A DNA stretch of 63,983 nt, the filler included, from Basidiobolus ranarum (taxonomy: Eukaryota): assembly GCA_040143965.1 (NCBI GenBank). It is 4 parts of 4 records of this genome, joined end to end, with 100 filler letters (N's around TTAATTAATTAA, not from the genome) between each part and the next. Parts side by side here need not be neighbours in the genome. Positions count along the whole stretch, not along the records: positions 1 to 16,789 come from JASJQH010007206.1; 3 more parts are not named here. One strand, given 5' to 3'. Both the position numbers and the translations under genes were made by a program. Below the pieces are notes generated by a model. That model had not been told where the DNA came from. It did not search any database and saw nothing but the letters and a program-made list of their open reading frames with translations. The number at the start of each line of letters is the position of its first letter. Position 1 is the stretch's first letter. Positions 1 to 53,966 of the stretch are shown in pieces.

Positions 1-167
1 AAAACTTTGGTTTCAGATAGTTTTGCATTGTTTTCTTCTCCTACAACAGTGTCCCAAAGTCCTTTTTCTTGCAGCAGCATTTTCATTTTAATTTTCCAAA
101 CTTGATAATTGATTCCATCCAATTTTTCAGAAGAGAGAGAAGTTCCATAAATCTGAGAAGTAGACAT
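1..167 (-). CDS. gag: Ty1/copia Gag(-Pol) N-terminus, running off the window edge
   Basis: Manual translation from ATG at 167: MSTSQIYGTSLSSEKLDGINYQVWKIKMKMLLQEKGLWDTVVG, the copia Gag N-terminal pattern (KLdG.NY..Wk.kM...L..kgLW). Directly follows the LTR and PBS. Not in the ORF track. Confidence 0.85.
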   Translation of the reverse strand, partial: MSTSQIYGTSLSSEKLDGINYQVWKIKMKMLLQEKGLWDTVVGEENNAKLSETKV

Positions 168-186
168 TACAGAGAGTGCAAGCTTG

Positions 187-198
187 GGGCTCATAGCC
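187..198 (-). other. Primer-binding site of the copia element (tRNA-iMet anticodon-fragment type)
   Basis: Minus strand reads ...TTTAACA|GGCTATGAGCCC right after the LTR; one mismatch to the GGTTATGAGCCC PBS of Ty5/copia-type elements. Confidence 0.75.
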
Positions 199-547
199 TG
201 TTAAAGCATTTGGGAGCCTGTTGGAAGTGGTTTGGAAGATTAGAGGAATTGGTGGTTTTTACTTAATGAATTATTGAGTATTCAGTTGACATATATAGTT
301 TTGTCAAGATGTAAACAAACTAACATGTAGAATGTGTTAAGAAAAGATCCCAGGAACATGTGTGCAAAGTTTGGGGCTTCTAGCACAAGTTTGAAAAATC
401 TATATATCTGAGAACTTCTGAGTTGGTACAAATATTCCAAGTAAATTCCAATTGAGAATAATGGATGATATCTTAGTGAATTATAAGATAACTAAGTACC
501 AAGCTATATATGACTATATAGGTGTTTAGGCAAATCTAATTTCAACA
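199..547 (-). mobile_element. 5' LTR of a Ty1/copia retrotransposon (~349 bp)
   Basis: TGTTGAAA...TTTAACA termini; aligns by eye with copies at 33915-34244 and 56175-56522; followed by PBS and gag. Confidence 0.88.
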
Positions 548-829: not shown

Positions 830-1035
830 TCCTTACAAATAGACGCCTGCTGCATAAACCTGCAGCCTTGCTTGTCACTGGTGGTAGATAGGCATTCATA
901 TATTGTATGTTCCTCAAATTTAGTAAGGAATCTTCACTCAGAGTCAGTGTTTGGCTCATTGGAGATATTTCCTCACGCATAGAGTGGCCACAAAACCATC
1001 TGCGCTAGCCATGAAGATCACTTTTATCCCCACCA
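830..1035 (-). pseudogene. Decayed paralog of the repeat-peptide precursor
   Basis: Minus strand gives GDKSDLHG*RRWFCGHSMREEISPM (intact: GDKRDLHDLCGRWFCGHTKREEVSPV), then in shifted frames EEHTIYECLSTTSDKQ and GLCSRRLF (intact: EEQAVHEQSSTISDKR, DLCGRWF). Contains a stop and frameshifts. Confidence 0.75.
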
Positions 1036-1266
1036 CAGTTATATGTATTACGCTCCTCAATTACTAACTATAGCACAAGTCAAATAGTTATCTAATTTAC
1101 AACAATAGGAGATTTATTAAATTATGCAATTGAACACAAAAAAAGGATTCGAAATTACTACAGTTTGGTTGACATCAAGACAAGAAACAGCTGACTCTAG
1201 GTCAGTAAATCTTTGGTTGTACATTGTTATTTGCGTACAGGCCATATGAATCGGGTGAATTTTCAG

Positions 1267-1302
1267 GCTACTGGTGATAGAGCTACTGGTGATAGAGCTA
1301 CT
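1267..1302. repeat. 15-bp tandem repeat (GCTACTGGTGATAGA, ~2.4 copies)
   Basis: Directly visible. Confidence 0.8.
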
Positions 1303-1342: not shown

Positions 1343-1729
1343 TCAACTACTGAGAGAATCTACGCCATTGCTTACTGATGATCGGAGGTGATTACGCAGG
1401 GAAATGCTTCGTTTCTTAGTGTGACCACAGAACCACCTTCCACATAAGTCATGTAGATCTCGCTTGTCACTGATGGTAGATGATTGTTCATGTACTGCTT
1501 GCTCTTCAATTTTTACAGGAGGCATTTGCTCAGTGTCATTGATAGTTGTTTCTATTTGAATAACTGGAGAGACTTCCTCACGTTTAGTATGACCGCAGAA
1601 CCATCTGCCGCACAAATCATGAAGGTCTCTTTTATCTCCTGCCATAGCCTTGAAATCCTGATCTGCAGGTAAACTTTGTACTGTCAGAATAAGAACAGTA
1701 GTAGCTACGAAGATGCTGATGAATCTCAT
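1343..1729 (-). CDS. Secreted Kex2-processed repeat-peptide precursor (KEP) with two identical DLHDLCGRWFCGHT cores
   Basis: Hydrophobic signal peptide MRFISIFVATTVLILTVQS; two KR-DLHDLCGRWFCGHT-K(K)R units; acidic spacer; TATAAATA upstream on the minus strand (1804-1811). Confidence 0.85.
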   Translation of the reverse strand: MRFISIFVATTVLILTVQSLPADQDFKAMAGDKRDLHDLCGRWFCGHTKREEVSPVIQIETTINDTEQMPPVKIEEQAVHEQSSTISDKRDLHDLCGRWFCGHTKKRSISLRNHLRSSVSNGVDSLSS

Positions 1730-2426
1730 GACTATATATAAAAAGATACTGGAGGCTGATGTTGTGATAGAACTGATTGGAGATTAGCATCTTACCGTCT
1801 AGCTATTTATATGATTTCATGGTCAGACAAAATACATGGCAGTTAGTTTGATGTTCCCAGAATATACAAATCAGGCTAGATGATTTTCATTTCTGGTGAA
1901 TATCTCGGTGGTGTCTAGAGATACCCTGAGAATACACTTCTGTCAATTGGTTGCCTAGTGAGTATTTCTTAGAATGGAGCGATTCTCAGTTGTTATATTC
2001 CTGGAATATTAAGTGATGCAAACCAGTATCTCAAATTATATGAGCACGAAAAAGTAACAATTTCTGGATCAATCTATCCAGTTAAAGATTTGATCACTGT
2101 ACGCACTACCTTTGCATTTCAGTTGAGTGATGCTTCTAATTTCTCGCTTTACTTTCAAACTTTAACTGTATTGTATTGAATTTTGAACCCAATAATATTA
2201 TCAATGTAACGATAGCAAATTCCTGAGGCATTGTCTGATAAATGATTACTAGGGTCAGCATAAATTTACTAAACATTATATCGGTTGGGGAATGTGTGAA
2301 TTAATTGATAGCAGACCTGTGAATCAATACTTGATATATCAACTCAGAAAATCTACTTTCCAACATCTTGGGAAGTAACTGGTGTATAATGAGTGGAACA
2401 AGATTCATCAGATGATACGGTTACTC

Positions 2427-2572
2427 ATACTTCTGCTGCGAATCTGAGATTGTTGCGAAGAATTTCATCTCTTTTCCTTGTTCGCTCGCAGAACCATCTG
2501 CCACATGGGCCATGTAGATCCCGCATGTCGCTGATGATAGATGAGCTAGGGAAGTAATGAAGATTAAGCATA
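2427..2572 (-). pseudogene. Diverged partial copy or last exon of a peptide-precursor paralog
   Basis: Minus strand reads SSIISDMRDLHGPCGRWFCERTRKRDEILRNNLRFAAEV*, matching SSTISDKRDLHDLCGRWFCGHTKKRSISLRNHLR. No signal-peptide exon found. Confidence 0.7.
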
Positions 2573-4523
2573 TTCAGCTAGAATGCTGTTCAAATAAGGA
2601 GATGATTGCTAAATTCTGCAAATTTAAATTTTAGCAACAGCTTAGTTAGAGTGTAAGACGGAACATGGGATATAAGTTAAATATCCAAGAATCAGCAATG
2701 CTGAACTTGAAATTTCAAAGTTGTCTAAACTTACCCCAAGACTACTCATTAGGTTCACACTTGTATTCTGCACTTAATCTCACTGTTTATATTTTGTATT
2801 TCCTTCAACAGTAAAAATAGTATATTTCTGGTCAATAAATAAATATCATCCAAACTGTCAATCCCTACAACAACTGCACTCACACACCTCCAAATTCTTT
2901 CTATAGGTCCCTAGTCTATGCAAATGGTGATATCTGCTCATATTTGTATTACCAACTCTATACATATAGTCACAAAAAGCAACGCTTTTTGATACATAAG
3001 TACCGGGTAATAACATGTGATAGAGCATACTGTTCCGTATCTGAAGAGCAAAATATGTTCATTCATTTCTAAAGCACTTATGTTTGTAAATACATTGAAA
3101 GAGATTAGAGACACAACTGATGATATAATACCAATTACTAGACTTACTGTTCTTATGTTTGATGGACATATTTCCTAGAATAGTAGGAAACAGCTATCTA
3201 TAGTATCTTCAACAACCCAAGTTAATATGGCGACGGCATAGCTAGTAATACTATTGCAAGGCCAGAGATATTTTCAGTATCCACTCATATAATTACCTAA
3301 CATCTTTACATTAGAAATTCATGAAGAATAATCACATCCAGTTGGCAGACTATCGAGCGGTAATTTATGGAGTTAACAATAGTCCATCTGTTAATGTCAA
3401 AAACTCTATAGTGTGTGTTTGCCTTTAATAGTTTAAAATGAACATCAACTCTCTGACTATGAAGAACAGAAACAACCGGAAAGAGATAAAAGCTCACTGC
3501 GCCCAAATTCCTGATACTGAGAAGCACTGTTCATTGACCACCAATTAATATTGAGATACCATGACAATAGTAATTAGGACAACAGTAAATAGGAATTAAC
3601 TCCAGCACATGTATGAATCTGGTGAGAGTAGTTATAAATATGTGAGGAATTAACTGAAACACTCCAAGACCCGGAATGATCAATCGGGGCCATTGAATCT
3701 GTTTTCGACTGAATGATGTAACAATGATAGAACCCTAATCTTAAGAATCTTCCATTAGAAATGGACGGATGACTTTTTTGGATACTGAGTTCAATCTTAT
3801 TGCCTTTGAAGCATAACCTTTCTTATCCAGCAGCGCCTTCCGTATATATTCATAACCGATATCAATTATAAGGGGTTAGCTAAGCTCAGGGAAAGCAGAT
3901 CTGGTATATTTGCTGTCACAGACCATTCTGGAGCACCAAAATCACTAATACCATGCATTTACCATCTGGTGAGATCTACCAGGGTCAACATGAAGTGTAG
4001 TATAGTCATGAATTTCTCGATCTAATTCAATTTTGTGGTTCCATAATACATGTTTTGTAAAGCCAAGCCACTCCTGAGGATTGGTCACTTTATAATTAGC
4101 ACGAACTAGATCATTCGATTCTTTAATAAATAGTGTTTAAGCCAAATATTTATGTCTACAGTTTAACAAGTCATCTGAAGCTGAGACGAATTGATAGAAA
4201 TAGTATTGATTTGTTTGACTCTGTCATAGTGAGGTGGGGGTGAAGGGGTGAGAGGGTGAAGATCGAATCAATCGTATCTCTATATACTAAATAAATTCTC
4301 GAAACGTCTTTATGATGTCATTCTTGTACCTAATTGATCAACATGGTTAATGTGAAATTTTGTTAACCCTCATTTCATATTTAATCAGGTCACTTTGCCG
4401 ATAAAAAATCTCCATTTTTCCCTTCTCACTTTATCTTTTACTCGCTTGATCCATCCCACCTCATCCTCTTACTACTCTTATCAATACTATTATACAACAT
4501 TCCCAAACAACTTGACTTTGATA

Positions 4524-5563
4524 ATGTCTTCAGAGAAATGTGTCTACCCTATCAGTAGTACACATCTGTTGGAATTCACCAAACGAAAAAATTGGTCGCA
4601 TCGCATCATTGGCCAGCTACACGATTTCCACTACGTTTTAACCACATCAGGGAAACTGATATATTGTTCACCTTCATGTCTAGAACTCACGGGATACTCA
4701 GCTCATGAGCTTTTAGGGAAAGATATTGTGGAATTCATACACGTTGATGATATCGACCCATTTGTTAGTTATCTTAAAGAAGCATTAACCAAAGGAGATT
4801 TTCGGTTTTTTTATCGATTTAAATGTAAAAACTCTACCTACACTATCCTAGAAGTATCCGGACATCCATATTTTCAAAATGGTTCTGCTTCAGCCAAATG
4901 CTTTTTCAATCAAGCTAGACCATATCCTGCTCGGGCCACTTCTATGCTAGATGCACTCCTTCAATTAAAACTCGAAAATGAAATCTTAAGTCAATCGGTA
5001 GAGGAATTAAGATCCGAATTACAAGACCATGAAATAGATCCATTTGATGGCAACCGGGGGCCAACCGAGTGGAACGAAGTGGACTCTGGTGTACAGGCAG
5101 GTGATGAATCATTTAACGACGAGCCGAGAAATACGCTTGACCTTCGTGGAGGTATGGGCAGTCGTCGTTCTTCTGTTAACACCGATGAAACTCGATCCAC
5201 GCCAAATAGCAATGTCCAACCCAACTTGGCTCCTGACGCTACGAAAAAGGTTTGTTTCAGTAAAGTTAATCGAGTATATTCTATTCCGTCGACTCACCCC
5301 CTAATCTTAGCGTAAGCATAAAGCATTCGATGATATTGAACGCGTGTGTACTGAATGTGGAACTACTGATGCTCCTGAATGGCGTAAGGGACCTATGGGA
5401 CCTAAAACGTAAGAACCCACAGCTCCTTCATGTTCCAAATATCATTTATTCATGTTAGTCTCTTCATTTTTCTAGGTTATGCAACGCTTGTGGTTTAAGA
5501 TGGTCTAAAAAAAGCAAAAAAGAAAGTACTAATTACGAACTATTAAGGAATATTATCCGTTAG
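4524..5563 (+). CDS. wc-2: White collar-2-like PAS + GATA zinc-finger transcription factor (3 exons)
   Basis: PAS domain ([15 protein letters not shown]...[12 protein letters not shown]...ARPYP) and a coiled coil. After introns ~5250-5310 and ~5409-5475, the GATA finger [30 protein letters not shown]. Confidence 0.9.
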
Positions 5564-12326: not shown

Positions 12327-14503
12327 TGTGAGAAAACCAATGTGATGTGGAATATGATGCATCTCATAGGGTTTTGGGATGCTTTTAAATGAAATTTTTC
12401 ATTCTTGCCCTCGGATCTGCTCCGAAATATTTACCCTTACAAGTTTGCTCACGGAAGAGGGCCTGTCCGATTGAAGAAATGATTGGCTAGAATGTTAGGA
12501 GCTATATTTATCTAATAATAGGTAAATGCGGTAATTTTTAATCTCCTTTCCTTTCTATTTAGCCCGATTTCCGGTTCATATTATGTGAAATCTCCAGCGT
12601 AAACCGAGGAAGCGGTTTCCCTTCAAGCACTGTTGCTAGGTGATAAGTGATTCCACTTAAACTTTCCCTATAACTCAATTCCCTTGCTATACTAAAATAT
12701 CACCAATGTTTCACGATCGACTCATGTTACTTAGATAACTACAGTCAACCTCTTTTTAGGCCTGAGCTGGCTGAGACGGCTTAATTATGCGGCTATGATA
12801 TAAGGGTAATAGTTAAGCAGATCGATTATATGTAACTATATATTATTTGGCGTAGTGCAAATTGTGGGTTACGGGCTATCGGTTACAGGTTGTGGGTTGT
12901 GAGTTGAATGTGGCAAGAGGAAACGGCCCGAGGGGTTTTGAGAAAGTTCCTAGATTTTAGAGGATATTCTGATGTAGAATTCTTGGCAATCCGGTCACCC
13001 AAATTCAAGTCACCAGAATCACATTGATTATTAACGAATGGTGAGTAACGAATGGTGAGGAATACATCCGAAAGATCATTAATATCTCATGAGATTATAC
13101 CCATTTCTGTAAGGTATTCTGCTTAGCAAGCATCGAAGCATTGCCTAGAGTCATAGGTTTAAGGTGATTTTTAGCCAGTAACTCGAATCCACTGTCCTTT
13201 CCATTTACGGTTAATAATGAAAGTCAATCGGAAAATCAACTATCCGTCTTTTTACCTACTCACCTATTCCCCTATCCACTTATTCCCGTTACTCCCTTCG
13301 CCCTAATTCAGTCCTTATGGAGATGTGTGGATCAAAGAAGTGGACTGTGTAAGAGAGTTAATATGTTCTCAAAAACGTATTAGAGACGAGTCTCTACGAT
13401 CCAATTCACCCATTATCGTAGAATGGTTTAGCCGATGGATCCATTTTATTAAGGATGAATGATTGGCTGATAGCCATCAAGCTGACCATTCATGATGATA
13501 GGATGTAACAAGTGTGATAACATTCACCCGGGGTAGAGTCGCGTTTTAAGGTTTGTGTTGTAGTGTATTACGACAGGAATGGGAACTGAAAGAAATTGGT
13601 AGATTAAGAGAAATAAAAATAGCAATTGGTCGCAAGCCAATGAATCTAGATGTCGTGTCAGGTGAATAAAGGTAAATCATTAACAAGGTTTGAGAAAGCG
13701 TCATACCCAATTACAGAGAAGTAGATTTTGCTCACATATATATGAATGATACTATATTCGCTTGGAGTTACCTAGGATTACTATTTTGGCTTAGCTGATG
13801 CTCACTTGATGCGAACTGTTGGAATCCAGTTTTTATGGGCTTTGATGGTCTTTCTACGCAGGTACAATACGTGATAATCTTTGTCATATGCTTCATCATG
13901 CAGGGCCTAGACGAGATATAATGATATAATAATATAATGTGGAATAGTTGATTCCTAAATGTGTTGAATCATTATTTTAAAGTGAATTCCATTTGGTGGT
14001 TTGTTTCCCAAGTTTTTTTCAATTCTCTGTTCTTACCAACAGAATGACATGAATCCCCTATTCAATTGCTTAATATCTAAAGATATTAATAGTAGATTTG
14101 ACAATTCGCGACAAACCCTGCATTATCTTAGAATATCATATACTTAGCATACTCTCATTGCTTCAATTACTCCAATGTGTACATTTCTTTATCACTAGAT
14201 CGTTGATTACATCAAGTTCTCTATTTTGAACAACGTCATAGACGAGTTGAAAAGGTTACTTAATTTGCAACCGGTTAACATCCAAAAAGCGGCGATGCTC
14301 TTTATTGGTAACTAAAGAAACAGTAAAAACAAAGAGGAACAAATTCAATGAAACGAAGAATGAAAGAATAAATAAATGGAAATCAAAGAGAAAGTATGCA
14401 AGTCACCTGTAGCTCACAAAAAAAGATTAAGGTTGTATTGGGTGATTTCCGTTCAAAAGATAAAAACAACTCACAAAATGAACAGAAAAGACTACACTCA
14501 ATA

Positions 14504-16789: not shown

Positions 16790-16889
16790 NNNNNNNNNNN
16801 NNNNNNNNNNNNNNNNNNNNNNNNNNNNNNNNNTTAATTAATTAANNNNNNNNNNNNNNNNNNNNNNNNNNNNNNNNNNNNNNNNNNNN
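16790..16889. other. Artificial contig linker N44-TTAATTAATTAA-N44
   Basis: Identical 100-bp spacer with stops in all six frames; occurs three times. Confidence 0.97.
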
Positions 16890-18420
16890 CGCCTCTGCCA
16901 AATCTACCGAGACCCACGACACTGCCAAATCTACCGAGACCCACGACATGGTCAAGTCTACCCGGAGTCAAGACACCACCAAGTCCAACAAGAATAACGG
17001 CACTGCCAGGTCTACTGAGACTCACGACACTTCCAAATCTACCGACACTCGGGATACTCACAATTCTTCCAAATCGGTACAGGTTCACGACACTTTCAAG
17101 TCTATAAACAGGCACCATACTTCTCAGTCAGCTTTCACTCATGTCAATTCCAAGTCCAACGAGACTCACAAAACTGTGAAGTCTGCCGGAACTCATGACA
17201 CCGCCAAGTCTGCTGATATTCACAACACCTCCTGGTCTACTGAGACTTACTACTCTTACCAATCAGCTCACACTGGTGATACTTCCAAGTCTACTGAGAC
17301 TCAACACGGTTCCAACTCTGTACACACTCACAATAACTCCAAGTCTGATGTGACTCAAGCCACTTTTAAGTCGGTTGAGACGCATGATTCTTCCAAATCT
17401 GAAGAGACTCGCAATATTTCAAAGTCTACTGCGACTCACGACATTTCCCAGTCGGCTGAGACGCATACCGCCTTGAAATCAATAGATACTCACCTCGCTC
17501 ACGGGTCGACTGAGGCTTATGGCACTTCCAAATCGACTGAGATTCATAATATTCCCAAATCGACAAAGACTCACGACACTTCTAGGTTCACTGAGACCCA
17601 CAGCACTTCTAAATCTACTGAGACTCATGACACATCCAAGTCTGTAGAGACTTACACCACTTCTAGGATTACTGTGACCCATGACGCATCCAAATCGTCT
17701 GAGACACATGATACTTCCAAATCCGAAGAGACTCGCAACACTTCTAAGTCTACGGAGACTCATGACACTGCCAAGTCGACTGAGACGCATGAAGAATCCA
17801 AGTTGACTGAGACCCACGCCGCTCACGACCCTCGTAGGTCTACGAAGGCTGACGGCTTGCAGAAGTCAACTGAGACTCACAACTCTCGCAAATCTACCAA
17901 GAGAACCGTCTCTTACAAGCCTACGGAGATCCATGACTCCAATAGGTCATCAGTTACTCACGACACCTATATGTCGACAGGGACTAACGACTCTCACATA
18001 TCTACAGAAACTAATAGTCCTCATAAGTCGACAAGGACTTACGCTAACTCAAGAGAGACTCAAGATGTTCTTAAGTCCAAAGTGGCTCATGAATCTGACA
18101 AATCTACCGCGACTCACGCCTCGCACATATCTTCTGAGACTAACGATTCTCCCCAATCTACGGAAACTCACGACTTACAAAAGTCAATAGAGACTAACGA
18201 CTCCCACTTGTCTATGGAGATTCACGACTCTCACAAGTCATCAGAGACTCAAGATAGTCCCAAGTCCACAGTGACTCACGATTCGGAAAAATCTACTGAA
18301 TCTCAAGTCGTTCACCAGTCTACTGAGACTCACGACTCGAACATATCTTCAGAGACTCACAACGTACTAAATTCAACTGAGACTAACGTCTCGCACAGGT
18401 CTACCAATATTGACGATACA
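16890..18420 (+). repeat. 27-bp coding minisatellite (AAATCTACCGAGACCCACGACACTGCC-like)
   Basis: Near-perfect units at the contig edge, more diverged downstream. Confidence 0.85.
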
Positions 18421-19626
18421 CGCAAATCTAGGGAGATTCATTATAAACAAAAATCCACGAAGATGCCCAATTATACTGCTAAAGTGATTCAGTCTGACCA
18501 ACCTGCCATTTCTGCTGTAACAATCAATAGTGTAAAATATGAGACTGTTATTGTCGCCAGTCAACCGGAAAGCTCTCCAACTGTTGCCACCTTTTTCCCC
18601 ACTGGCTATACCACGACTGTCACTATTTTCAATACTAATGAAGCTACAATGACCAACTCTGCCCAGGTTAAAGAAACTACGGCTTCCGAGTCTTTTGTTG
18701 ATGCTATATCCTCTGATACTGGAGGAATTGTTCCGTCAAAAGAATCTTTAGCCACAGCTGTCACTACCGCTATTGTGAATTCTAAGACTGTTACAGTTGA
18801 ACGACAACCTACAATCTCGCCAACTGCTATCACCATCTTCTCCACTGGGAATGTTAAGAATGTCAAGATTGTTACCGTAACTAATACCAATGAGATTACT
18901 GTGACTGATTCTGTAGTTGGTGTTATGCCCACTCACACTGCTGAAGTTACCCAGTCACAAAAACCTTTTATCACTACTTACACCACTAATGCGGTAATAT
19001 ATAAGACTGTTACTGTTGAACAACAGCCTAAAACATTATCAACAGCCGCCACCATCTCCCCCACAGTTTATACCAAGATAATTACTATTTCTAATGCTAA
19101 CGAGGTTAAAACGACTGCAACAGCTTCTGACTCCTTGCGCGAATACAAAACAAGAGTTTCTAACGTCAACGAAGCCACTGTGGCGGAAACAACTTTTGAT
19201 ATTGTATCCGAATATACTGGCAATGTTGTGAGACATGAGACTAGAGTTGTGAAGGAACATCTTGAGAGTGCAGTGACTGATGTTGCTGGAGTACCTACTC
19301 TATATGTCACGACGTTAACCGACACAAATGTTTGCCCCTCTACCACTATTTCGCCTATCACTATTACTCCTTCTCCGGCCACTGTTACGGTTACGTATTA
19401 TCAGACAATAGTTACTACTACTGTCAGCGTTACTTACGTAGATGGTCTTCCTCAACCCACAGAAGCCCTTTGTGAGAACGGCACTTACAAATGTCAGGAT
19501 TCAGGAGTTTCACCTCAATTCACAGTATGTGCCAGTGGTAAGATAGAAACATATCATTGTTCCCCGGGGACTGTATGCATAGCATCCGGAAATACTGTTG
19601 TTTGCGACTGGCCTTCCAAAATCTAG
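16890..19626 (+). CDS. Ser/Thr/His-rich mucin-like repeat protein with a C-terminal CBM19-like Cys domain (5' truncated by the contig end)
   Basis: 9-aa repeats (KSTETHDTS consensus), Thr/Val-rich stalk, C-terminal CENGTYKC...FTVCASG...CSPGTVC...VVCDW. Confidence 0.8.
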
Positions 19627-20938: not shown

Positions 20939-22189
20939 CTACTTGGCAAACGGACATCCACCTCCGGCAGCACTTCCCGTAACTGGAGGATGCCCTTCAG
21001 GAAGAGCTTGCGTATTCTCCTCTGACGAAGCAGCTTTTTCCTTAGACTGATCGTAGAAAGGGCATTTTCCCTTTACTGGGCAACTCCCTCCCTCGCCTCT
21101 CAAATGATGGGATGGGTCCTCTTTGACCTGATCATAGTAAGGGCACTTACCAGCCAATGGGCACTTGCTATCCTCGTGAGGTTGAACGGAGCCATGGCCG
21201 GTCATATGCTCGGTAAAAGGACATTTTCCTTCACCAGTTACATGACCCTCTTTAACAACATCGTAATAGGGGCATTTGCCCTTCACTGGACATTCCCCGT
21301 GCCCTCCAGTCAAATGATGGGAGGGATCGTTCTTCACTTGATCATAATATGGGCATTTGCCAGCCAATGGACATTTTGATTTGTGCTCCGTCTCTGTCAC
21401 ACTATTTTGCTTCACTTGGTCATAGTAAGGGCACTTACCCTTGACGGGGCACTCTCCATGACCTCCACTTATATGATGAGCGGGGTCATTCTTGACTTGG
21501 TCATAGTATGGGCATTTACCAGCAAGGGGACATTTGCCAGTCTCATGAGCTTCGTGAGTTGCCATTCCTCCCATATGGGCTAGGAAGGGTCATTTCCCTT
21601 CCCCTTTATCGTGACCTTCCTTTACGACATCATAGTAAGGGCACTTACCCTTCACTGGACATTCTCCGTGCTCTCCAATTAAGTGGTGCTTGGGGTCATT
21701 CTTTACTTGATCATAGTAAGGGCATTTTCCAGCAAGAGGACATTTGGAGGAATGAGCAGTATCCATGCCCTCCTTTTGTTTGACCTGATCATAATAAGGG
21801 CATTTTCCTTTAACTGGGCACTCTCCATGTTTTCCGGCCAAGTGATGGGATGGATCATTCTTGACTTGATCGTAATATGGGCATTTACCGGCAAGTGGGC
21901 ATGTACCAGCCTCATGAGCTTCGTGGATATTCATTCCCTGCATGTGATCAAGGAATGGGCATTTTCCTTCTCCTTTGTCATGACCTTCCTTGACGACGTC
22001 ATAGTAAGGGCACTTCCCTTTCACTGGGCATTCTCCATGCCCAGCTGTCAAGTGATGGGCGGGGTCGTTCTTCACTTGATCGTAATAAGGACATTTCCCG
22101 GCAAGAGGGCATTTCGAAGCTTCGTTGGGGTTTTTAGTAGCTTCTGAATGGCTACTGTAAGGGCATTTACCGGCGTTTGAGTTGGACAT
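20939..22189 (-). CDS. Cys-Pro/His-rich repeat protein (putative heme/metal binding), interrupted by an in-frame TGA at 21590-21592
   Basis: ORFs 21590-22189 and 20939-21574 are in the same frame. 12 CPxxGKCP[YF]Y modules; every Cys is followed by Pro (28 CP). C-terminus LPEGHPPV...GGCPFAK. Confidence 0.8.
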
Positions 22190-24514
22190 ATTAAGAGACT
22201 AGGGTGTATTAACGTAAACTTGGAAAAGGCGGATTTCTCTAGATAAACAGAAGGAATATAGTATGGATGTTTGAACTATCGATTGTCAACCTATACACGA
22301 TATTTACGAAATTAAGAATAGAGAGATTTTTCAAACTACCAGAGTGTTGTGTAGAAATGAAATGAGGAGTATCTGAAGTGAGTCCTGGGGAGCACCACTA
22401 TTTAAGAAAATAGAAGATCAGTCAGACATCAATACTAATAGGAGGAAATCTGATACCCTGGCTGGGATAATGAAATGTGCACCAATGATCCTGCTTCGGG
22501 AGTTGTCAAAGGTCAACTGATAGTTTGTATTAGCGAATAAGTATGTGGCAGCCAAATAGCTCATGCTACTTCTCCTATCAAACTGATCTGCTATACCTGA
22601 CAACTGCAATAAAAGCATTTAGGGTTACTCCTGTGTTCTGCATTATCACTGTCGAGACCTACATCCTAAGCGTCTCGCTTGAGTGGTCATTTGCCATTCG
22701 TTTGTGAAAATGTTGCCTTCATTCTTTGAGAATCAAGTCTGAGGATTTGTCCTACGATTACGTCACACAACTACAGGGGACTTGGCTAAGATTGTTTGTA
22801 TAGAAGCAGCCAATAGAAAAAATCGGCGGGGCCCGACGTATATACGTACTGAGTGTCACAGTTCCTGGCTATATATGGGCTTGTCAAGGCCAGATGCATG
22901 TTCTTGCCACATATCCGTAGAAGCTAGGGTTGGGATATTGGGATATTCCTATGTAACCACAACTTCACTTATCCTTGCACCTACTGACACAAATATCACC
23001 GTCTCTCTCTGGCGAGTCGATGGAAATTATCGTTGGAACAGGCTAAACGAAGTAGTATATCAGTCTAATCTCAATACCGTTACACAGAATATAATAGACG
23101 AACATACTAATTCTATCACTTTGCCCCATTTGCTAGACACCCTTCAGTTACCAATACCCAGTCAGAGAAAACCGAATCCGCAGTCCAATAGGCCATACTC
23201 TATTAGACATGCTCAGAATATAAGGTCCTAGGAGACTGTCTTAGAATACCATTAAAGGTTTACGTCCAGAGCTTTGAACGTAAACAGCAAGTGTGTATAC
23301 TAAGAAGATAGGAGCTTGAGGTATAAGCCAACCAATATGCTGATTAGATAGTATATTTGATGTTTCATTGAACACGGAATATGTGTGGCTCATAACTCTG
23401 AATGGTAAAAATAGATGCAAGCGAGTATTTCAAGGTACTGGCAATTCAAGCATGCTTGCATACTGCTAATACATTTCCCGCTGTTAAAATACTGGATCGC
23501 CATTTTGGTTGGTTGACAGAGGGTCCTATTTAACAAAGTCATTACTCTTTCTATTAGATTTCAGCAATATAGTTTAAAAATGTGCTCGCTGTATTCTTCT
23601 AGAGGATTTAACTGGAACATATACTACTCTAAGATGCACACTGGTTGTCCACCTCTCAGGGAAATATGATCGAACTTGGGGCGCTTGACTCCTGATGAAG
23701 CTTATTTTATTAAGCTATTAAAGGTACTGACTATATCCATATGCTATCTAATTTTGAACAACATCGCAGAAGAATATAACGCACTTGGAAATCATAGCTC
23801 AATCATAAGAATATTTAAATACATCTATATGTTGATACTAATAGGCAAACAACACCACATACAACCGCTATTGATTTACGACCGTAGCTTTGGCAGGCAA
23901 AGTAAATATTCAAGTTTATGGATACGTCTCTTTTATTGGAAGCTTTATTTTCAGCTCACGGTTTATATTCGTTCGTGGTTGCTATGGATGCTACAGCTGT
24001 ATGGTGAACGAGGCGTATTCTGATCATAGCCGTAAATGTCAAGTTTAAAAGCGCCACTGCATCATGTGAAATTGATGGGCAAATGGTCTGATGTCAGGGG
24101 ATACAGCCTTCTCGTTAAGAACCTATATACTGTGCTCGATACATAATATATCATAAAGCGAATCAAACAGAAGCTAGTTTTTTAACTAAGCTATCTTGTT
24201 TCTGGCTCAATTGATCATATCCACACATTGTTAAGAGTTGAGTTAACTTAGATCATGTTCAATGAAATCAATTAAAACTGATTATATGCAAATTGAATCA
24301 AGTGTAAATGCGCTACGTGAGTCAATCAATAATCGTATATATATTGTATTCACTTCTTAATAGATTGATCGATCTTTTTACAAATCACTTTGCTAAATTC
24401 TAACACACATGTCATCAACAAACTAATTTGTCTTTAAAATAACCTACATGCTTCCTTCTCATTCTCTTTTTGTTTTTTCCACTTTATCTCACATACATAA
24501 TTTTATACTACACT

Positions 24515-45807: not shown

Positions 45808-47250
45808 CTAGTCTCCTTCAGCTTCAACCAATTTACCAATATTGAAATCGATACGAATCCACGGTTTGAATTTCAACAGGTTCATGAGAAGCAAAGATGG
45901 TATTTGAATATGATAGAGTGCAAAGAATGGTAGTGGGTCATTAACGCTTAGAACTGCATCTCTACCTTCAAGCAGTTGGAGAGTCCACTTTTGTAAGTCA
46001 CTCAAGCTTCTAGTCTGAAGTAAATTGTACATCTCATGGTACACCCAATAGGTAGGTCTAGCATTGGATAAGGGAACTATCGGCCATTTGGGTGGTTCCC
46101 CATCCGACCCTTCATTTTGTTTACTGAGATAAGCATCGGCAAGTAAGGAGTGATTATAGAAACAAGTGATGGCTGAATGTAAGCGAGGATTACATTCAAT
46201 CGAGTAGATTTGTCCATTTTCAGCCTCTATGAAATCAAAGCATGCTTGCCCGGTAAGTTTGCTTTCTTTGACGAATTTGTTGACCCAGTCAAATATAGCT
46301 GGCTTATCCACAGCCGTATAGTTTAACAGCCACGAGGAGGATTCGCAACATACATAAACCCTCAAAGATCCATCTCTAGCAGTTGCATGAGCACAGTATT
46401 CTCTACCTTCAATATATTCCTGTAAGATCCATGGGTTATCTTTACTGATGCGTAACTTGGACAAGAAGGCGAGCAGATTCTCTTCTTTCGCCAATGGTAG
46501 TTTAGTTAAATTTAATCTAGCTTCTGCATCATACTTAATACTTTTCAAAATGTATTGTCGTCCTTTGGAGTCTTCGCTATTAAAATTAAAGTCTAGAACC
46601 TGTTGCCTATCGGTGATAAGGAATGACTGAGGGACTGATAATCCAATGGATCTTGCCTTTTCATTGAAGAGCATTTTGTCGTCTAACATTTTGCATGTTT
46701 CGTAATCAAAATGAAACACTTCGCAATACTTTTCCAAGAATGGCTTTGCTAAAGATTCATGTTGTGCCGATGCTGGTGATGATACTGGGATGAAAGTATC
46801 CACCCGTTCCTTACGGATAATATCTACCAAAGCACTAGTAAAGCCTTGCTGATCCTTCTCTGGCGAAGGAACAGTGTAGAACGCGTCCACCGAGTTGGAA
46901 AACCTAGCTCCACTTAACCAATATTTCTCACCCTCAATAAGAATAACTCGATGACCAGCTGCCTTGAAACCTCGACAAAGTTGTAAAGCTTTGGTCATTT
47001 TACCACCAGTGATGGCAATAGTTTTTTCACGGGTGGAGGTAGCTCTCTCGGTTTCTTTCGGATAAAGCCATTTTAAGGAGTAACAAAGGGTAAGTATGAA
47101 GAAGTCATATGGTAATAAGAAAACCTCTAGTAAGATGAACAAGAAAAGGTTTTGAAAGAAGCCGAAGCCTTTTTCTCGTATTTTTGACCACATACTTTTC
47201 TCTCTTTTTCTTGGCCATTCAAGTATCCATTTTATAGGTGAAAGATACAT
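45808..47250 (-). CDS. mysC: MysC-like ATP-grasp ligase (mycosporine biosynthesis family), intronless; start may be 47250 or 47193
   Basis: Hydrophobic N-terminal segment, ITGGKMTKALQLCRGFKAAGHRVILIE...YWLSGARFSNSVDAFYTVP, YILKSIKYD, PWILQEYIEGREYCAH, IECNPRLHSAI, RIDFNIGKLVE.GD. Confidence 0.85.
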   Translation of the reverse strand: MYLSPIKWILEWPRKREKSMWSKIREKGFGFFQNLFLFILLEVFLLPYDFFILTLCYSLKWLYPKETERATSTREKTIAITGGKMTKALQLCRGFKAAGHRVILIEGEKYWLSGARFSNSVDAFYTVPSPEKDQQGFTSALVDIIRKERVDTFIPVSSPASAQHESLAKPFLEKYCEVFHFDYETCKMLDDKMLFNEKARSIGLSVPQSFLITDRQQVLDFNFNSEDSKGRQYILKSIKYDAEARLNLTKLPLAKEENLLAFLSKLRISKDNPWILQEYIEGREYCAHATARDGSLRVYVCCESSSWLLNYTAVDKPAIFDWVNKFVKESKLTGQACFDFIEAENGQIYSIECNPRLHSAITCFYNHSLLADAYLSKQNEGSDGEPPKWPIVPLSNARPTYWVYHEMYNLLQTRSLSDLQKWTLQLLEGRDAVLSVNDPLPFFALYHIQIPSLLLMNLLKFKPWIRIDFNIGKLVEAEGD

Positions 47251-47530
47251 CACCCCAATTGGTTTACTCACTCCTTTATTTAAAATCAATCTTATTTTTG
47301 ATGGCTTAGCTCTACGTGCCCATTCTACACGTAATCGCTACTGTGCCTTATCAAGTATAGAGCAAGTCACATAGCTAACTAATTACAGATACGTCATAGC
47401 AAATGGGTCATCAAAGACGAATAGCAACAATCAGTATTGGGGATCTAATTCCAATGATCGATATACCAGCTGATTTCTACTGGCGACATGCCAATACCCA
47501 TACCCATACCCATACAAATCCGAATAATGA

Positions 47531-50463: not shown

Positions 50464-50563
50464 NNNNNNNNNNNNNNNNNNNNNNNNNNNNNNNNNNNNN
50501 NNNNNNNTTAATTAATTAANNNNNNNNNNNNNNNNNNNNNNNNNNNNNNNNNNNNNNNNNNNN
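50464..50563. other. Artificial contig linker
   Basis: N44-TTAATTAATTAA-N44. Confidence 0.97.
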
Positions 50564-50901
50564 CTGTGAGCAAGCGTGATTACACTGGGGATGGGACCTT
50601 CTTCACACCTGATCGGGATGCATGCTCGAAGCAAGGAGATAGCTCTAGTGAGAGCGACATGATTGCAGCCCTCAGCCGCTTCCAATTCGGCCAAAGCTCC
50701 GGCCAAGACACCAATCAAGCATCAATGTGTGGCAAATGTGTCCAAGTGCAAGGACCTAAAGGGTCAGTGGTTGTTCGTATTCGCGATTTATGTGCTCCAT
50801 GCCGTAGTGGTGACATTGATCTCACTCCATCGGCCTTCAAGAACATTGCTGACCTGAACGCTGGGCGTGTTAAGGTTACTTGGAAGCAGGTTAGCTGCTA
50901 G
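50564..50901 (+). CDS. RlpA-like double-psi beta-barrel (expansin/loosenin-like) protein, 5' truncated
   Basis: GDGTFFTP..DAC...MIAALS...MCGKCVQV.GPKGSVVVRIRDLCAPC..GDIDLTPSAF. Confidence 0.85.
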
Positions 50902-51762
50902 TTAGCTTGAAGCTACTAGTGTTCTTGAATTGTTTATAAGCAATAGCTTGGCGTGTGGAGTCCAGGATATCTCTGGAAGATATATTCTTGATTTACATAA
51001 CTGGTGGATCGGTCTGTAGTGGATCTATACTTACTGATTTTCAAGTTATTCTATTTCATTATTGTTGGCTAAATTTCCAAAGCTTTGTTTATTTACGAAT
51101 AAAAATGACGTATCCATGAATCCAACAAAGGTCTCGTTTAGCTTTGAAACCATCTATTAGTTGTAAGTTTAGATTAGTTCCTACAATTTTCTATATATCC
51201 CAATAGGATAGATCTTTGAGATAGATATCGTAATTGCTAGAGATCTTTGGTTTCATCTTGGGTAATGTCTTGTTTCACTAGACATACGCTGAAAATCAAT
51301 TTAGCGATTGTAAGACTAGTTGTTCAGGAGAGTTGTTTCCTAGTAGTAATAAAGGATGGATGAAACGCTGATAGTTGTACTACATGGATACAATGAGTGC
51401 GTCACAAAGCCTATTTACAAGATTGAGAAAACTTCACCATAACATGGGGAGCAAATTGCAAGTAAAGATTTCGAGCTTTGATTTGAGAAGAACAGCTCAC
51501 AGTAGGGTAAACTAATATCCCTGCCCATTACTGGATAACACCAATAGTAAACTCTCAAACCATTTGTAAATGTATTGTATAGCTTATATTTGTTTGGGAG
51601 TTGCCTCCGATTGGAAATTACAATCCAAGCATGTCCGATTCATACATTATTGCCTTGAAAATACTGTCCTCTCTCACTCAACCAGTCCATGCATAAAAGC
51701 CGATCTTGGGGTGGGTAAAGAATTAACTACTGATTAAATATCTGTAATCAATAAACCTTAAC

Positions 51763-52185
51763 ATGTTAAAAGTATTTATCACACTAATCCTTTTGTCCCA
51801 GCCGGCTCTTGCTATTGACTTTATGGGATATGCTAACAGAAGATCTCAACTTAACCGTCGTGATATAAGCGGCTATGGCACTTATTTCACTCCCTACCAG
51901 GATGCATGCTCGAAAAATGGAGAAAGCTCAAGTGAATTTGAAATGATTGCTGCATCTAGTCGATTCGAAATTGGACTGAAAACAGGAGAGAACACAGAGC
52001 AAGCTGCTATGTGCGGGAAATGCATCAAAGTCCAGGGACCTAAAGGATCGGTGATAGTGAAAATTAGAGATATATGCCCTTCATGTCGTAGAGGCGATAT
52101 TGATCTTACTGAGGCTGCTTTTAAAAAAATTGCTGACCCCGACCAAGGTCGCGTAAAAGTGACATGGAAGCGAACCAAATGCTAA
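51763..52185 (+). CDS. Secreted RlpA-like/expansin-like DPBB protein
   Basis: Signal peptide plus the same DPBB motifs. Confidence 0.88.
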   Translation: MLKVFITLILLSQPALAIDFMGYANRRSQLNRRDISGYGTYFTPYQDACSKNGESSSEFEMIAASSRFEIGLKTGENTEQAAMCGKCIKVQGPKGSVIVKIRDICPSCRRGDIDLTEAAFKKIADPDQGRVKVTWKRTKC

Positions 52186-52648
52186 TAATCAAAGATCTTA
52201 CATATAATCCACTCGACTAAATAGCGACACTGAAGTATTTTTCCTTTGCCAAGTCTGTTCAATCCCTAGAGTGGCTAACTTTTGTAAAGAGTTACTACCA
52301 AACCAATACCTGTAAAGCAATAAATATAGACCCACTCGAGGTACGAAAAATTAAATGCAACTTACCAGGCCTACGTCGTAAATGTCAATGGACTATTTAG
52401 AAACATTGGGGCCCCTAACTTGGAAAATTCAATTTCTATCTTGGAGTCCTGTCACTAGCTTCGAATTTGTCTATTTCACGTTGAGCTGATATATTCGAAC
52501 ACGTTTATTTGAATTTCAAATAGATATTATGCAAAAGTGCCAAAATAAATTAATAGATATCGCTTAAGAGCGCCGAAACGTAGAGCTCAAAGCCAAAAGT
52601 CATCGAACACAGTCCAACCAAAACTTTATGAGCTCAACCGCTTCCAAT

Positions 52649-53065
52649 TCAACAGTCTGTTTCTTCCCATTTAACGTTTATCCTGCCAATATGCAACGGC
52701 GCAATTCTTTTAAAAGCCGTTGGTGTCAAATCAATATCGCCGCTACTGCATGTTGCACAAAGATCCCGAACCTTTACCACCACTGAACCAAGTTTGGTAA
52801 ACACTTTGAGACATCTACCACACATGGGAGATTCATCTGTTCTACCTTTGCCGCCATTGAAATCCTCAGGGCTTAGTGCAGCAATTAATGAACTTTCACT
52901 TGATGTTTCACCATCCTTTGAGCAAGCATCTCTCTCTGGAGTGAAGTAAGTAGCTTGTCCTCGCTTCGCATGCTTAAGATAAACCTTTGCTGTTCCTTGG
53001 GTAAGTCCATCTATGGCAGCGACCGCAAAAACAAAGATAATAAAGAGAGAAAACAACCGTCGCAT
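52649..53065 (-). CDS. Secreted RlpA-like/expansin-like DPBB protein
   Basis: Signal peptide plus the same DPBB motifs. Confidence 0.88.
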   Translation of the reverse strand: MRRLFSLFIIFVFAVAAIDGLTQGTAKVYLKHAKRGQATYFTPERDACSKDGETSSESSLIAALSPEDFNGGKGRTDESPMCGRCLKVFTKLGSVVVKVRDLCATCSSGDIDLTPTAFKRIAPLHIGRINVKWEETDC

Positions 53066-53966
53066 GACTTTCGAGTAAAAGAATGTAGCGAAATAAACAA
53101 ACTATAGAGTGCTTAAATACATACAGTAAAATATTGAGTATGCTTCTCCGCGTGTTTATTTCAATACTTTAAGTAAGTGACTCCCTAACTTATCCTTTAT
53201 TAGAAAAATAGTAAGGAGATCGTGTATGAACCACAAGCTCAACTTCATGTAAGCAGTACATCTTCGTTTGATTGCATACTGCTTTATGTAACCATATAGA
53301 ATATAATTGTTTGTTGGTGATTTAAGAACTTCGGACTAGGATGAAGGAGTAGGGCTTCCAAAGTAGTTGAGAAGTCAACCGCACTATGAAGGTTCAACAG
53401 TCAAACATCAAAAAAGAGATCGCAGGATTTTTCAACAAGCCACTTGGTAGATAGAAAGAAATCCACCAGCTCAGGAATGGTGAACTTGAGGTGCTCCCCT
53501 GAGAAATCGTATCATATCAACAAATACGATTATGGGCTGCGGCTATATTGTAATCAAACTTGTACATTATGGATCGGCCTCCTTTAGATATCAACTTTGC
53601 ATATGCTTCAACGTATATTGCTTTGAAATCGAATTCTATCCACAGATATTAAATCATGCTCTCCCAAATATGTTGACTTCATTTCATGCATCAAAGCAAC
53701 ATGACTAAACTAAGATGAACTTAGTATGCTGGAACTGAGGAGAATTCTACGTTTGTGCCTCATTAGAACTAAAGTAGTGAACCCCTTTTTACGAATTAGT
53801 ATACGTTTAACTGCAAACAGTGTTGTGGCCAAGAAAATCGATTTATTTTGTACACTTAAGTGTAAATTCAGAATATATGTACGCAATGGAAAATAACTTT
53901 GTGTAGAATAGCTTCCCCAAGGTGGCTAGAGCGCTCAACACTCCAGACAAACTATCGGAACAAGCT

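What the first reader, a model, noticed from the sequence alone, without database searches (positions are those of the whole stretch)
1343..1729. Candidate new secreted disulfide-loop peptide DLHDLCGRWFCGHT from an alpha-factor-like precursor
Seen: a signal peptide and two KR-flanked cores. Across the 18 aligned codons (DKR...HTK), 13 differ and every difference is synonymous, which points to strong purifying selection on the peptide. Known: signal peptide plus dibasic-flanked repeats is the Kex2-processed architecture of alpha-pheromones, candidalysin and fungal RiPP precursors. Inference: the product is a 14-mer with a six-residue C-G-R-W-F-C disulfide ring. The ring size and basic/aromatic core recall GPCR ligands such as urotensin II (CFWKYC). 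It could be a pheromone or autocrine signal, an antimicrobial, or a host-directed mimic. No DUF3328/UstYa tailoring gene is visible nearby.
Basis: partly seen in the sequence, partly recalled or inferred. Interest (0 to 1): 0.8.

Follow-up and report, generated by a model that had tools for sequence, protein, structure and literature searches.

The report
Amplified secreted ring-peptide precursor family
This is a real, uncharacterised fungal gene that most likely releases two copies of a small secreted 14-residue peptide, and it belongs to a much-duplicated Basidiobolus gene family that keeps that peptide almost letter-perfect.

Summary
Window 1343-1729 (-) is an intact, intronless 128-aa ORF. 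It has a hydrophobic signal-like N-terminus, two identical DKR-DLHDLCGRWFCGHT-K(K)R modules, an acidic spacer and a short tail. The two 18-codon modules differ at 13 codons, all synonymously; 0 of 2,000,000 random 13-substitution sets kept the peptide.

- The gene belongs to a family of 20 further, tandemly clustered "hypothetical proteins" of Basidiobolus ranarum. Of 41 core copies, 30 are letter-identical. Core modules are 92-95% identical between paralogs; the rest is 37-50%.
- Two decayed paralogs flank the gene on the same strand.
- A distant second Basidiobolus precursor family shares the CGGW.C.H ring.

No Pfam family, no DUF3328 gene in the window, no confident fold, and no mention in print were found.

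Best reading: a dibasic-processed (Kex2-type) propeptide that yields a 14-mer, probably disulfide-cyclised, acting on a fixed extracellular target. After cleavage the N-terminus D-L-H would also fit a copper-binding ATCUN motif. Transcription, processing, the disulfide and the function are all untested here. It is a new member of a known kind.

The parts
1343..1729 (-). Intact precursor gene: 128 codons plus the stop at 1343-1345, no intron.
   Evidence: ORF and translation; 20 homologues of 111-152 aa (one 72-aa fragment), 46-77% identical.
1673..1729 (-). Residues 1-19, MRFISIFVATTVLILTVQS: predicted signal peptide.
   Evidence: Kyte-Doolittle mean 2.5 for the 11-residue window starting at residue 6; helix 2-18 is the only stretch with pLDDT of 70 or more. 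The -3/-1 rule was read by eye; SignalP was not run.
1628..1672 (-). Residues 20-34: N-terminal pro-segment ending in the dibasic site D-K-R.
   Evidence: K33 and R34 invariant, D32 nearly invariant; pro-segment identity is only 0.45.
1586..1627 (-). Core 1, residues 35-48, DLHDLCGRWFCGHT. It is followed by K-R (residues 49-50, window 1580-1585).
   Evidence: module identity 0.95 among 18 full-length paralogs.
1460..1579 (-). Residues 51-90: acidic, poorly conserved spacer (net charge about -6) ending in the second D-K-R.
   Evidence: identity 0.37 for residues 51-87; indels in this segment; charge.
1418..1459 (-). Core 2, residues 91-104, DLHDLCGRWFCGHT. It is followed by K-K-R (residues 105-107, window 1409-1417).
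   Evidence: module identity 0.92.
1346..1408 (-). Residues 108-128: C-terminal tail SISLRNHLRSSVSNGVDSLSS, with a loosely conserved S..LR..LRS pattern.
   Evidence: consensus, R112 nearly invariant; identity 0.39; low-confidence helix 92-126.
846..1079 (-). Decayed paralog A, downstream of the gene. It has in-frame stops and a frame break, and its first core reads GDKSDLHG*RRWFCGHSMREE.
   Evidence: tblastn E down to 4.7e-9; blastn aligns 867-1031 to 1459-1639 at 67% over 183 bases..
2365..2616 (-). Decayed paralog B, upstream of the gene. Its signal region has two stops, and a single mutated core reads SDMRDLHGPCGRWFCERTRKR, followed by a tail-like DEILRNNLRFAAEV*.
   Evidence: tblastn E down to 5.1e-13; blastn aligns 2489-2544 to 1428-1483 at 84% over 56 bases..

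Best explanation
The ORF is a working gene for a secreted propeptide.

Proposed steps, all inferred from established fungal secretory-pathway knowledge:
1. The signal peptide takes the protein into the ER, where the two cysteines of each C-x4-C core can be oxidised to a 6-residue ring.
2. A Golgi kexin (Kex2-type protease) cuts after D-K-R (residues 32-34 and 88-90), K-R (residues 49-50) and K-K-R (residues 105-107).
3. A Kex1-type carboxypeptidase trims the basic residues.
4. Each precursor thereby releases two copies of DLHDLCGRWFCGHT. Calculated monoisotopic mass is 1656.693 Da oxidised and 1658.708 Da reduced.
5. The acidic spacer and the tail are pro-segments.

Shown here: the gene is one unit of a tandemly amplified, birth-and-death family known so far only from Basidiobolus. 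The family raises output by gene number (at least 21 genes with up to two cores each) rather than by many repeats in one gene.

Function (inference): the whole 14-mer is frozen while the signal and pro regions drift. That is the pattern of hormone or pheromone precursors and the opposite of arms-race antimicrobial genes. My commitment is therefore that the peptide is a ligand for a fixed target, most likely a self-signal (autocrine, quorum or mating type) of the fungus.
For: - Intact ORF with a signal-like N-terminus and two dibasic-flanked identical cores.
- 13 of 13 codon differences between the modules are synonymous, and 0 of 2,000,000 random controls kept the peptide.
- 20 named B. ranarum homologues lie in tandem clusters by locus tag and contig: 5 genes on a 6,667-bp contig and 6 on a 7,692-bp contig.
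- K33, R34 and R50 and most core residues are invariant in 21 sequences.
- 30 of 41 core copies are identical. Of the other 11, 9 differ at one residue and 2 at two.
- Module identity is 0.95/0.92, against 0.37-0.50 for signal, pro-segment, spacer and tail (18 of 21 rows; three truncated rows dropped).
- Relatives carry 1, 2 or 3 cores.
- A distant family has three KR-flanked repeats with the same ring.
- The two disabled neighbouring copies have lost KR sites, cysteines and reading frame. The core therefore decays when selection is lifted.
- AlphaFold with the family alignment gives mean pLDDT 51 and pTM 0.23, with no domain.
- Weak lead only: a yeast alpha-factor cluster ranks third among language-model look-alikes, at 0.82.
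Against: - No RNA, peptide or activity data.
- No kexin could be looked for, because no genome is held.
- With only two repeats and a 40-residue spacer, the protein fails the repeat-number criterion of both published KEP surveys.
- The 14-mer is weakly acidic (charge -1.1 at pH 7), and no receptor is known.
- More than 20 genes for one peptide is unusual for a pheromone and could instead point to a bulk effector.
- The Atlas score is below the level at which such hits mean anything.
- The species of the window was not determined.
Confidence: 0.62

Rival explanations
1. Same processing, different job. The released 14-mer is a metal-binding (copper) peptide, used for antimicrobial redox chemistry or for copper capture or buffering in the animal gut. 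Cleavage after K-R would expose a free N-terminus D-L-H, that is H2N-X-X-His, the ATCUN copper/nickel site. C6, C11 and H13 could add a second site if the cysteines stay reduced.
For: - The ATCUN definition H2N-X-X-His comes from passages of PMC7701195.
- The abstract of PMC7232333 describes hepcidin-25 as an ATCUN-bearing, cysteine-rich antimicrobial peptide.
- His is at position 3 in 40 of 41 family cores.
- L36, C40, C45 and H47 are invariant and H37 is nearly invariant.
- Sub-threshold Pfam hits of 3 of 12 family members to a RING-like zinc-binding model, best E 9.1e-5, and a chance-level match to a C2H2 zinc finger, E 0.05, show that the C/H spacing looks metal-site-like.
- High gene dosage suits a bulk product.
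Against: - The distant ring-sharing family starts F-W-N after its KR site and so has no ATCUN motif.
- Metal binding alone would not need all 14 residues frozen.
- The Pfam and PDB matches are below every threshold.
- The free N-terminus depends on an unproven cleavage.
Confidence: 0.2
2. The protein is not cut. It is secreted whole as a small four-cysteine protein in which the two modules pair through inter-module disulfides, like a small effector or adhesion-type protein.
For: Four cysteines in two equivalent motifs could pair across the modules. Dibasic sites are not always used. A tail helix is weakly predicted.
Against: - AlphaFold gives no packing of the two modules (pTM 0.23).
- The spacer is 0.37 identical and carries indels of up to 10 columns.
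- Relatives with one or three cores exist.
- The KR/KKR residues themselves are invariant or nearly so.
Confidence: 0.08
3. The core is the substrate of further enzymatic tailoring, making this a true RiPP (extra cross-links or modified Trp/His), done by enzymes encoded elsewhere in the genome.
For: Umemura's abstract reports that 22% of KEP genes have DUF3328 genes nearby. Tailoring genes need not be linked. Total conservation of every residue would suit enzyme recognition.
Against: - No DUF3328 or other tailoring domain was found in the window's ORFs.
- The B. ranarum clusters of 5-6 paralogs fill contigs of 6.7-7.7 kb, leaving little room for other genes.
- The core has no tyrosine. That tyrosine is the residue cross-linked in dikaritins is recalled, not tested.
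Confidence: 0.08
4. A chance ORF or a dead gene with no product.
For: The gene lies in a gene-poor, AT-rich stretch between two pseudogenes and next to a retrotransposon gag fragment. There are no expression data.
Against: The reading frame is intact, homologues of the same length exist, and the purely synonymous divergence contrasts with the two neighbouring copies that really are dead.
Confidence: 0.02

Closest known systems
Kex2-processed repeat proteins (KEPs), including yeast alpha-factor precursors (Le Marquer 2019, PMC6339444; Umemura 2020, PMC7329392)
   Same: Signal peptide; short identical cores bounded by KR/KKR; no linked tailoring gene, as for mating-factor KEPs (abstract seen); core length of 14 aa lies within the 9-24 aa class typical of alpha-pheromones.
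   Different: Only two cores, separated by a long non-repeated acidic spacer, so it fails the three-repeat rule of both surveys. No MF_alpha or MF_alpha_N Pfam match. Amplification is by gene number: 21 genes and 41 cores. Umemura's text names B. meristosporus as the strain richest in KEPs (43), but its Y- and D-rich type S-3 does not fit this tyrosine-free core.
Ascomycete alpha-pheromones with two conserved cysteines, for example the Xylona motif RFCHLPGQGCSK quoted in Le Marquer 2019
   Same: A KR-processed, secreted short peptide with two conserved cysteines that could close a ring (passage).
   Different: No sequence similarity, a different cysteine spacing (C-x4-C here), and a different phylum. 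No mating role is known or tested.
Second Basidiobolus precursor family (P0025 and P0026 of B. ranarum, P0027 of B. meristosporus CBS 931.73)
   Same: Signal-like N-terminus; cores preceded by KR or RR; the shared ring and following His, C-G-G-W-[FV]-C-x-H. Found by the family profile at E 1.4e-4.
   Different: The N-terminal half of the core is different (FWNMRYY...). There are three repeats or one good terminal copy with degenerate ones, and no X-X-His start. Overall identity to the window protein is 27% in alignment A2.
Ustiloxin/dikaritin-type fungal RiPP precursors
   Same: Signal peptide plus Kex2-flanked repeated cores (abstract of PMC7329392).
   Different: No DUF3328 gene found in 64 kb. 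Only two repeats. No tyrosine in the core.
Vertebrate C-x4-C ring peptides such as urotensin II
   Same: A six-residue disulfide-capable ring holding Trp, Phe and a basic residue, released from a dibasic-processed secretory precursor.
   Different: No detectable homology. The order of the ring residues is reversed relative to the quoted motif. This is resemblance only.
ATCUN-bearing peptides (hepcidin-25 and histatins, named in the papers listed)
   Same: The predicted mature N-terminus X-X-His (for the definition). Cysteine-containing, secreted and small.
   Different: No sequence relationship. The free N-terminus is inferred, and metal binding is untested.

Membership tests
KEP (operational definition of Le Marquer 2019 and Umemura 2020) | N-terminal ER signal peptide | tested here: inconclusive
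   A basic residue at position 2, a hydrophobic stretch (KD mean 2.5 for the 11-residue window starting at residue 6), V/S at -3/-1, and helix 2-18 in the model. SignalP, which the definition uses, was not available.
KEP (operational definition of Le Marquer 2019 and Umemura 2020) | Repeats bounded by dibasic Kex2 sites (KR, RR, KK) | tested here: met
   KR before both cores, then KR and KKR after them. K33, R34 and R50 are invariant and K89, R90, K106 and R107 nearly invariant.
KEP (operational definition of Le Marquer 2019 and Umemura 2020) | At least three repeats | tested here: not met
   Two repeats in the window protein and in most paralogs. The threshold is stated in the Methods read. 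Le Marquer notes that some alpha-pheromone precursors also fall below it.
KEP (operational definition of Le Marquer 2019 and Umemura 2020) | Repeats make up at least 15% of the protein (Le Marquer) | tested here: met
   2 x 14 of 128 residues = 22%.
Yeast alpha-factor family (Pfam MF_alpha, MF_alpha_N) | Match to the Pfam models | tested here: not met
   No such hit at E <= 0.01. There is only a 0.82 language-model likeness to a cluster carrying these domains, below the level that counts.
Dikaritin/ustiloxin-type RiPP | A DUF3328 (UstYa) gene within a few genes of the precursor | tested here: not met
   No DUF3328 hit in any of the ORFs scanned: 10, 19 of 26 ORFs of 70 aa or more in 1-14 kb, 31 of 51 ORFs of 100 aa or more in 12-64 kb, and 68 of 74 ORFs of 40-69 aa in 1-10 kb. 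Caveats: small exons could be missed, and only 1.3 kb lies downstream of the gene before the window ends.
ATCUN peptides | His at position 3 of the mature chain | tested here: met
   D-L-H follows the KR site in both cores. 40 of 41 family cores keep the His. Definition.
ATCUN peptides | Free alpha-amino group at residue 1 and measurable Cu(II)/Ni(II) binding | not testable with these tools
   Depends on Kex2 cleavage and on chemistry; no tool covers either.
Urotensin II / somatostatin-type peptides | Sequence homology of the precursor or peptide | tested here: not met
   No Pfam hit above cut-off and no significant PDB sequence match. Only the C-x4-C ring size is shared.

The most novel reading that the evidence does not exclude
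Basidiobolus runs a peptide-ligand signalling system of its own. Two families of secreted disulfide-ring peptides share a C-G-(G/R)-W-x-C-x-H ring: DLHDLCGRWFCGHT and FWNMRYYCGGWVCAH-type. They would act as intercellular signals (mating, quorum or morphogenesis). That would be the first peptide hormone or pheromone system described in zygomycete-grade fungi, which are otherwise known for non-peptide signals (the latter point is recalled). A bolder sub-case is that the ring peptide acts on receptors of the amphibian or reptile host.
Probability: 0.25. Interest if true: 0.8.

Novelty: new member of a known kind. Interest (0 to 1): 0.55.

Why it matters
Basidiobolus is a gut associate of amphibians and reptiles and an occasional agent of human disease (abstracts listed). 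Nothing is known of its secreted peptides. Here one 14-residue sequence is encoded at least 30 times letter-for-letter across 21 genes and held by selection while everything around it drifts. That makes it a ready-made, cheaply synthesised candidate for a signal, a metal-binding agent or an antimicrobial.

The family also exposes a blind spot in the published genome-wide KEP surveys. Their three-repeat rule excludes families that amplify a peptide by gene number rather than by intragenic repeats.

Tried and rejected
- Metagenome scan with the family alignment: 82 pattern matches, of which 8 loci passed tblastn. On reading them all 8 were rejected. Three are retrotransposon reverse-transcriptase-like ORFs that merely contain ...RWFCGHTKRD.... 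Five share only the searched word KRDLHDLC, in an unrelated frame without signal peptide, second cysteine or repeats.
- PDB sequence search with the family profile: best E 0.05 (a C2H2 zinc finger), taken as chance.
- ESM Atlas: best score 0.87 to an unnamed Ascomycota cluster, 0.82 to an alpha-factor cluster, and no usable named hit for residues 20-128. These are leads only. The Atlas holds the sequence but has no model.
- AlphaFold of the precursor: low confidence, so no fold search was made.
- Species identification: my third protein search (UTP15-like ORF) was mistakenly run with lengths='longer' (607-2000 aa). It returned only distant fungal orthologues (best Entrophospora at 54%, then Blastocladiella at 50%), so the species remains undetermined. 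The genus is inferred only from the named relatives of the precursor.
- Not possible: whole-genome search, earlier findings, sequencing runs and read mapping, cluster member names for P0022-P0024.
- Literature:
  - 'CGRWFC' gave 0 papers. 'CGGWVC', 'CGGWFC', 'FWNMRYY' and 'WFCGHT' gave 0 papers.
  - Basidiobolus + Kex2 gave 1 paper. Basidiobolus + pheromone gave 19 papers, 12 listed, none on such peptides by title or abstract.
  - Supplements: the 3 held files of PMC7329392 contain no core motif but list only accessions. The 2 held files of PMC6339444 mention neither Basidiobolus nor the motif. Supplement files not held could still list a family member.
- Considered and dropped: Ste13-type N-terminal trimming, because there is no X-Ala or X-Pro after the KR sites; a cationic membrane-active antimicrobial, because net charge is -1.1 at pH 7; and C-terminal amidation, because Gly is not the residue before the basic pair.

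Full report
**Observation**

The minus strand of window 1343-1729 holds an ATG-to-stop ORF of 128 codons (sequence). Its parts, in order:
- a signal-like N-terminus, MRFISIFVATTVLILTVQS;
- a short pro-segment ending in D-K-R;
- the 14-mer DLHDLCGRWFCGHT, followed by K-R;
- an acidic 40-residue spacer ending in D-K-R (net charge about -6);
- the same 14-mer again, followed by K-K-R;
- a 21-residue tail.

The two 18-codon modules (window 1583-1636 and 1415-1468) differ at 13 of 54 bases and 13 of 18 codons, always synonymously. Only 5 codons are identical, against 7.4 expected for randomly chosen synonymous codons. None of 2,000,000 random sets of 13 substitutions preserved the peptide, and a simple all-silent probability is 2.4e-10. 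A degenerate DNA pattern for the ring matches only these two sites and none in 100 shuffles.

**Family**

A word-indexed search of 5.8 billion proteins returned 21 proteins at E <= 0.01 among 30 candidates. One is the window's own protein. The other 20 are "hypothetical proteins" of Basidiobolus ranarum, 46-77% identical, and each is its own 90% cluster. Locus tags and contig sizes show tandem arrays: K7432_013232-013236 on a 6,667-bp contig, 012427-012432 on a 7,692-bp contig, and smaller groups.

An exhaustive HMMER profile search of 1.84 billion representatives found 7 proteins at E <= 0.001:
- three representatives of the same family;
- three unnamed short proteins with a single variant core, DLHDFCGGWFCGH.;
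- P0025, a B. ranarum protein with three KR-flanked repeats of FWNMRYYCGG[FW][VA]C.H..

P0025's relatives are P0026 (B. ranarum) and P0027 (B. meristosporus CBS 931.73). Both end in ...RFWNMRYYCGGWVC.H.. The ring C-G-(G/R)-W-x-C-x-H is therefore shared by two otherwise dissimilar Basidiobolus precursor families.

Every named relative is from Basidiobolus. The window itself is eukaryotic and fungal by its other genes, but its species was not determined.

**What is conserved**

In the 21-sequence alignment, K33, R34, L36, C40, G41, W43, F44, C45, G46, H47, T48 and R50 are invariant, and the second module is nearly so. Of 41 core copies, 30 are exactly DLHDLCGRWFCGHT. Of the other 11, 9 differ at one residue and 2 at two.

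Three truncated rows (P0011, P0020, P0021) were dropped, leaving 18 full-length rows. Mean pairwise identity among them:

| Segment | Identity |
|---|---|
| Module 1 | 0.95 |
| Module 2 | 0.92 |
| Signal | 0.50 |
| Pro-segment | 0.45 |
| Spacer | 0.37 |
| Tail | 0.39 |

So the unit under selection is the dibasic-flanked 14-mer, not the protein as a whole.

**Local context**

tblastn of the family against the window uncovered two decayed copies on the same strand.
- One lies at about 846-1079. It has stops and a frame break, KR has become KS, and the first cysteine is lost.
- One lies at about 2365-2616. Its signal region has stops, it keeps a single core with six replacements including KR to MR, and a recognisable tail follows.

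The intact gene is thus the surviving member of a three-copy tandem array. The dead copies show how quickly the core degrades without selection.

Other features of the neighbourhood:
- A copia-type gag fragment lies at 3-200.
- The nearest recognisable gene is a PAS-domain ORF at 4356-5312.
- No DUF3328 or other tailoring domain was found. Coverage and caveats are given in the membership table.

**Other searches**

- Pfam gives only sub-threshold hits for the precursor and for 12 family members.
- The PDB profile search gives nothing significant.
- AlphaFold with the family alignment gives mean pLDDT 51 and pTM 0.23. Only the signal helix exceeds 70, so no folded domain is predicted.
- The ESM Atlas gives only low-score look-alikes, among them an alpha-factor cluster at 0.82.

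**Mechanism**

Shown:
- an intact gene;
- purifying selection focused on the KR-bounded 14-mer;
- a modular core number of 1 to 3;
- tandem amplification with gene death.

Inferred from general knowledge of the fungal secretory pathway:
- signal-peptide cleavage near residue 19/20;
- oxidation of C6-C11 in the ER;
- kexin cleavage after KR/KKR, followed by Kex1-type trimming, giving two 14-mers per precursor (1656.693 Da oxidised).

There is no X-Ala or X-Pro for Ste13-type trimming.

Function is inference only. An invariant mature peptide with drifting signal and pro regions is the pattern of ligand precursors. I therefore favour a signal acting on a fixed receptor.

The main rival keeps the same processing but makes the peptide a metal binder. 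Cleavage would expose D-L-H, which is H2N-X-X-His, the ATCUN motif as defined in passages of PMC7701195. His3 is present in 40 of 41 cores. The second family lacks this motif.

**Comparison with what is known**

The closest kind is the Kex2-processed repeat protein.
- I read the Methods of both surveys (PMC6339444, section 24; PMC7329392, section 13). Both require at least three repeats, so this two-repeat family would not have been reported by either.
- Umemura's text names B. meristosporus CBS 931.73 as the strain richest in KEPs (43). Its Basidiobolus-specific type S-3 is described as rich in Y and D, which does not fit this tyrosine-free core.
- Le Marquer's text notes alpha-pheromones with two conserved cysteines in several ascomycete classes. 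That is a functional analogy without sequence similarity.
- The likeness to urotensin II is limited to ring size and residue types.

**Novelty and limits**

None of the core motifs occurs in the searched full texts or in the held supplements. Supplements not held could differ.

This is a new, genus-restricted member of a known kind of precursor. It stands out for its extreme gene-level amplification and its invariant core.

Noticed in passing
window 3-200 (-): A 66-aa ORF matches the N-terminus of copia-type LTR-retrotransposon gag (DUF4219, E 4.4e-9, 36.3 bits against a cut-off of 27; Retrotran_gag_3, E 3.9e-5). The peptide-gene array abuts a retroelement at the window's edge.
   Followed up: no
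window 1267-1302: A perfect 15-bp tandem repeat (2.4 copies, unit GCTACTGGTGATAGA) lies about 40 bp downstream of the precursor's stop codon, between the gene and pseudogene A.
   Followed up: no
window 50512-54596: Four neighbouring ORFs on both strands (50512-50898 +, 51748-52182 +, 52652-53101 -, 53970-54596 -) each carry a DPBB_1/Barwin-type double-psi beta-barrel domain. This is a second local cluster of probable small secreted proteins.
   Followed up: no
P0025, P0026, P0027 (not in the window): A second Basidiobolus precursor family has cores of the type FWNMRYYCGGWVCAH, preceded by KR/RR and conserved between B. ranarum and B. meristosporus. Some internal repeats are degenerate (CNGLVC, CHGVVC, CDGGTC).
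   Followed up: partly
P0019, P0020 (not in the window): Two B. ranarum paralogs carry a third, C-terminal variant core (...LDRFCGGWFC and ...LDRFCEGWFC) that ends the protein with no GHT or basic residues.
   Followed up: no
window 20942-22198 (-): Two adjacent ORFs each give a partial DUF427 (NTP_transf_9) match (E 1.1e-6 and 1.2e-8). They could be a tandem pair or one gene split by an intron.
   Followed up: no
window 45811-47337 (-): A 509-aa ORF next to a sugar transporter gives a weak ATP-grasp_3 hit (E 4.2e-4, 20.9 bits, below the 23.2 cut-off). It lies 44 kb from the peptide gene and no link is suggested.
   Followed up: no
window 16846-19623 (+): A 926-aa uninterrupted ORF has no real Pfam domain. 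Its only hit is a sub-threshold match to a histidine-rich Plasmodium protein model, which suggests a low-complexity His-rich region.
   Followed up: no
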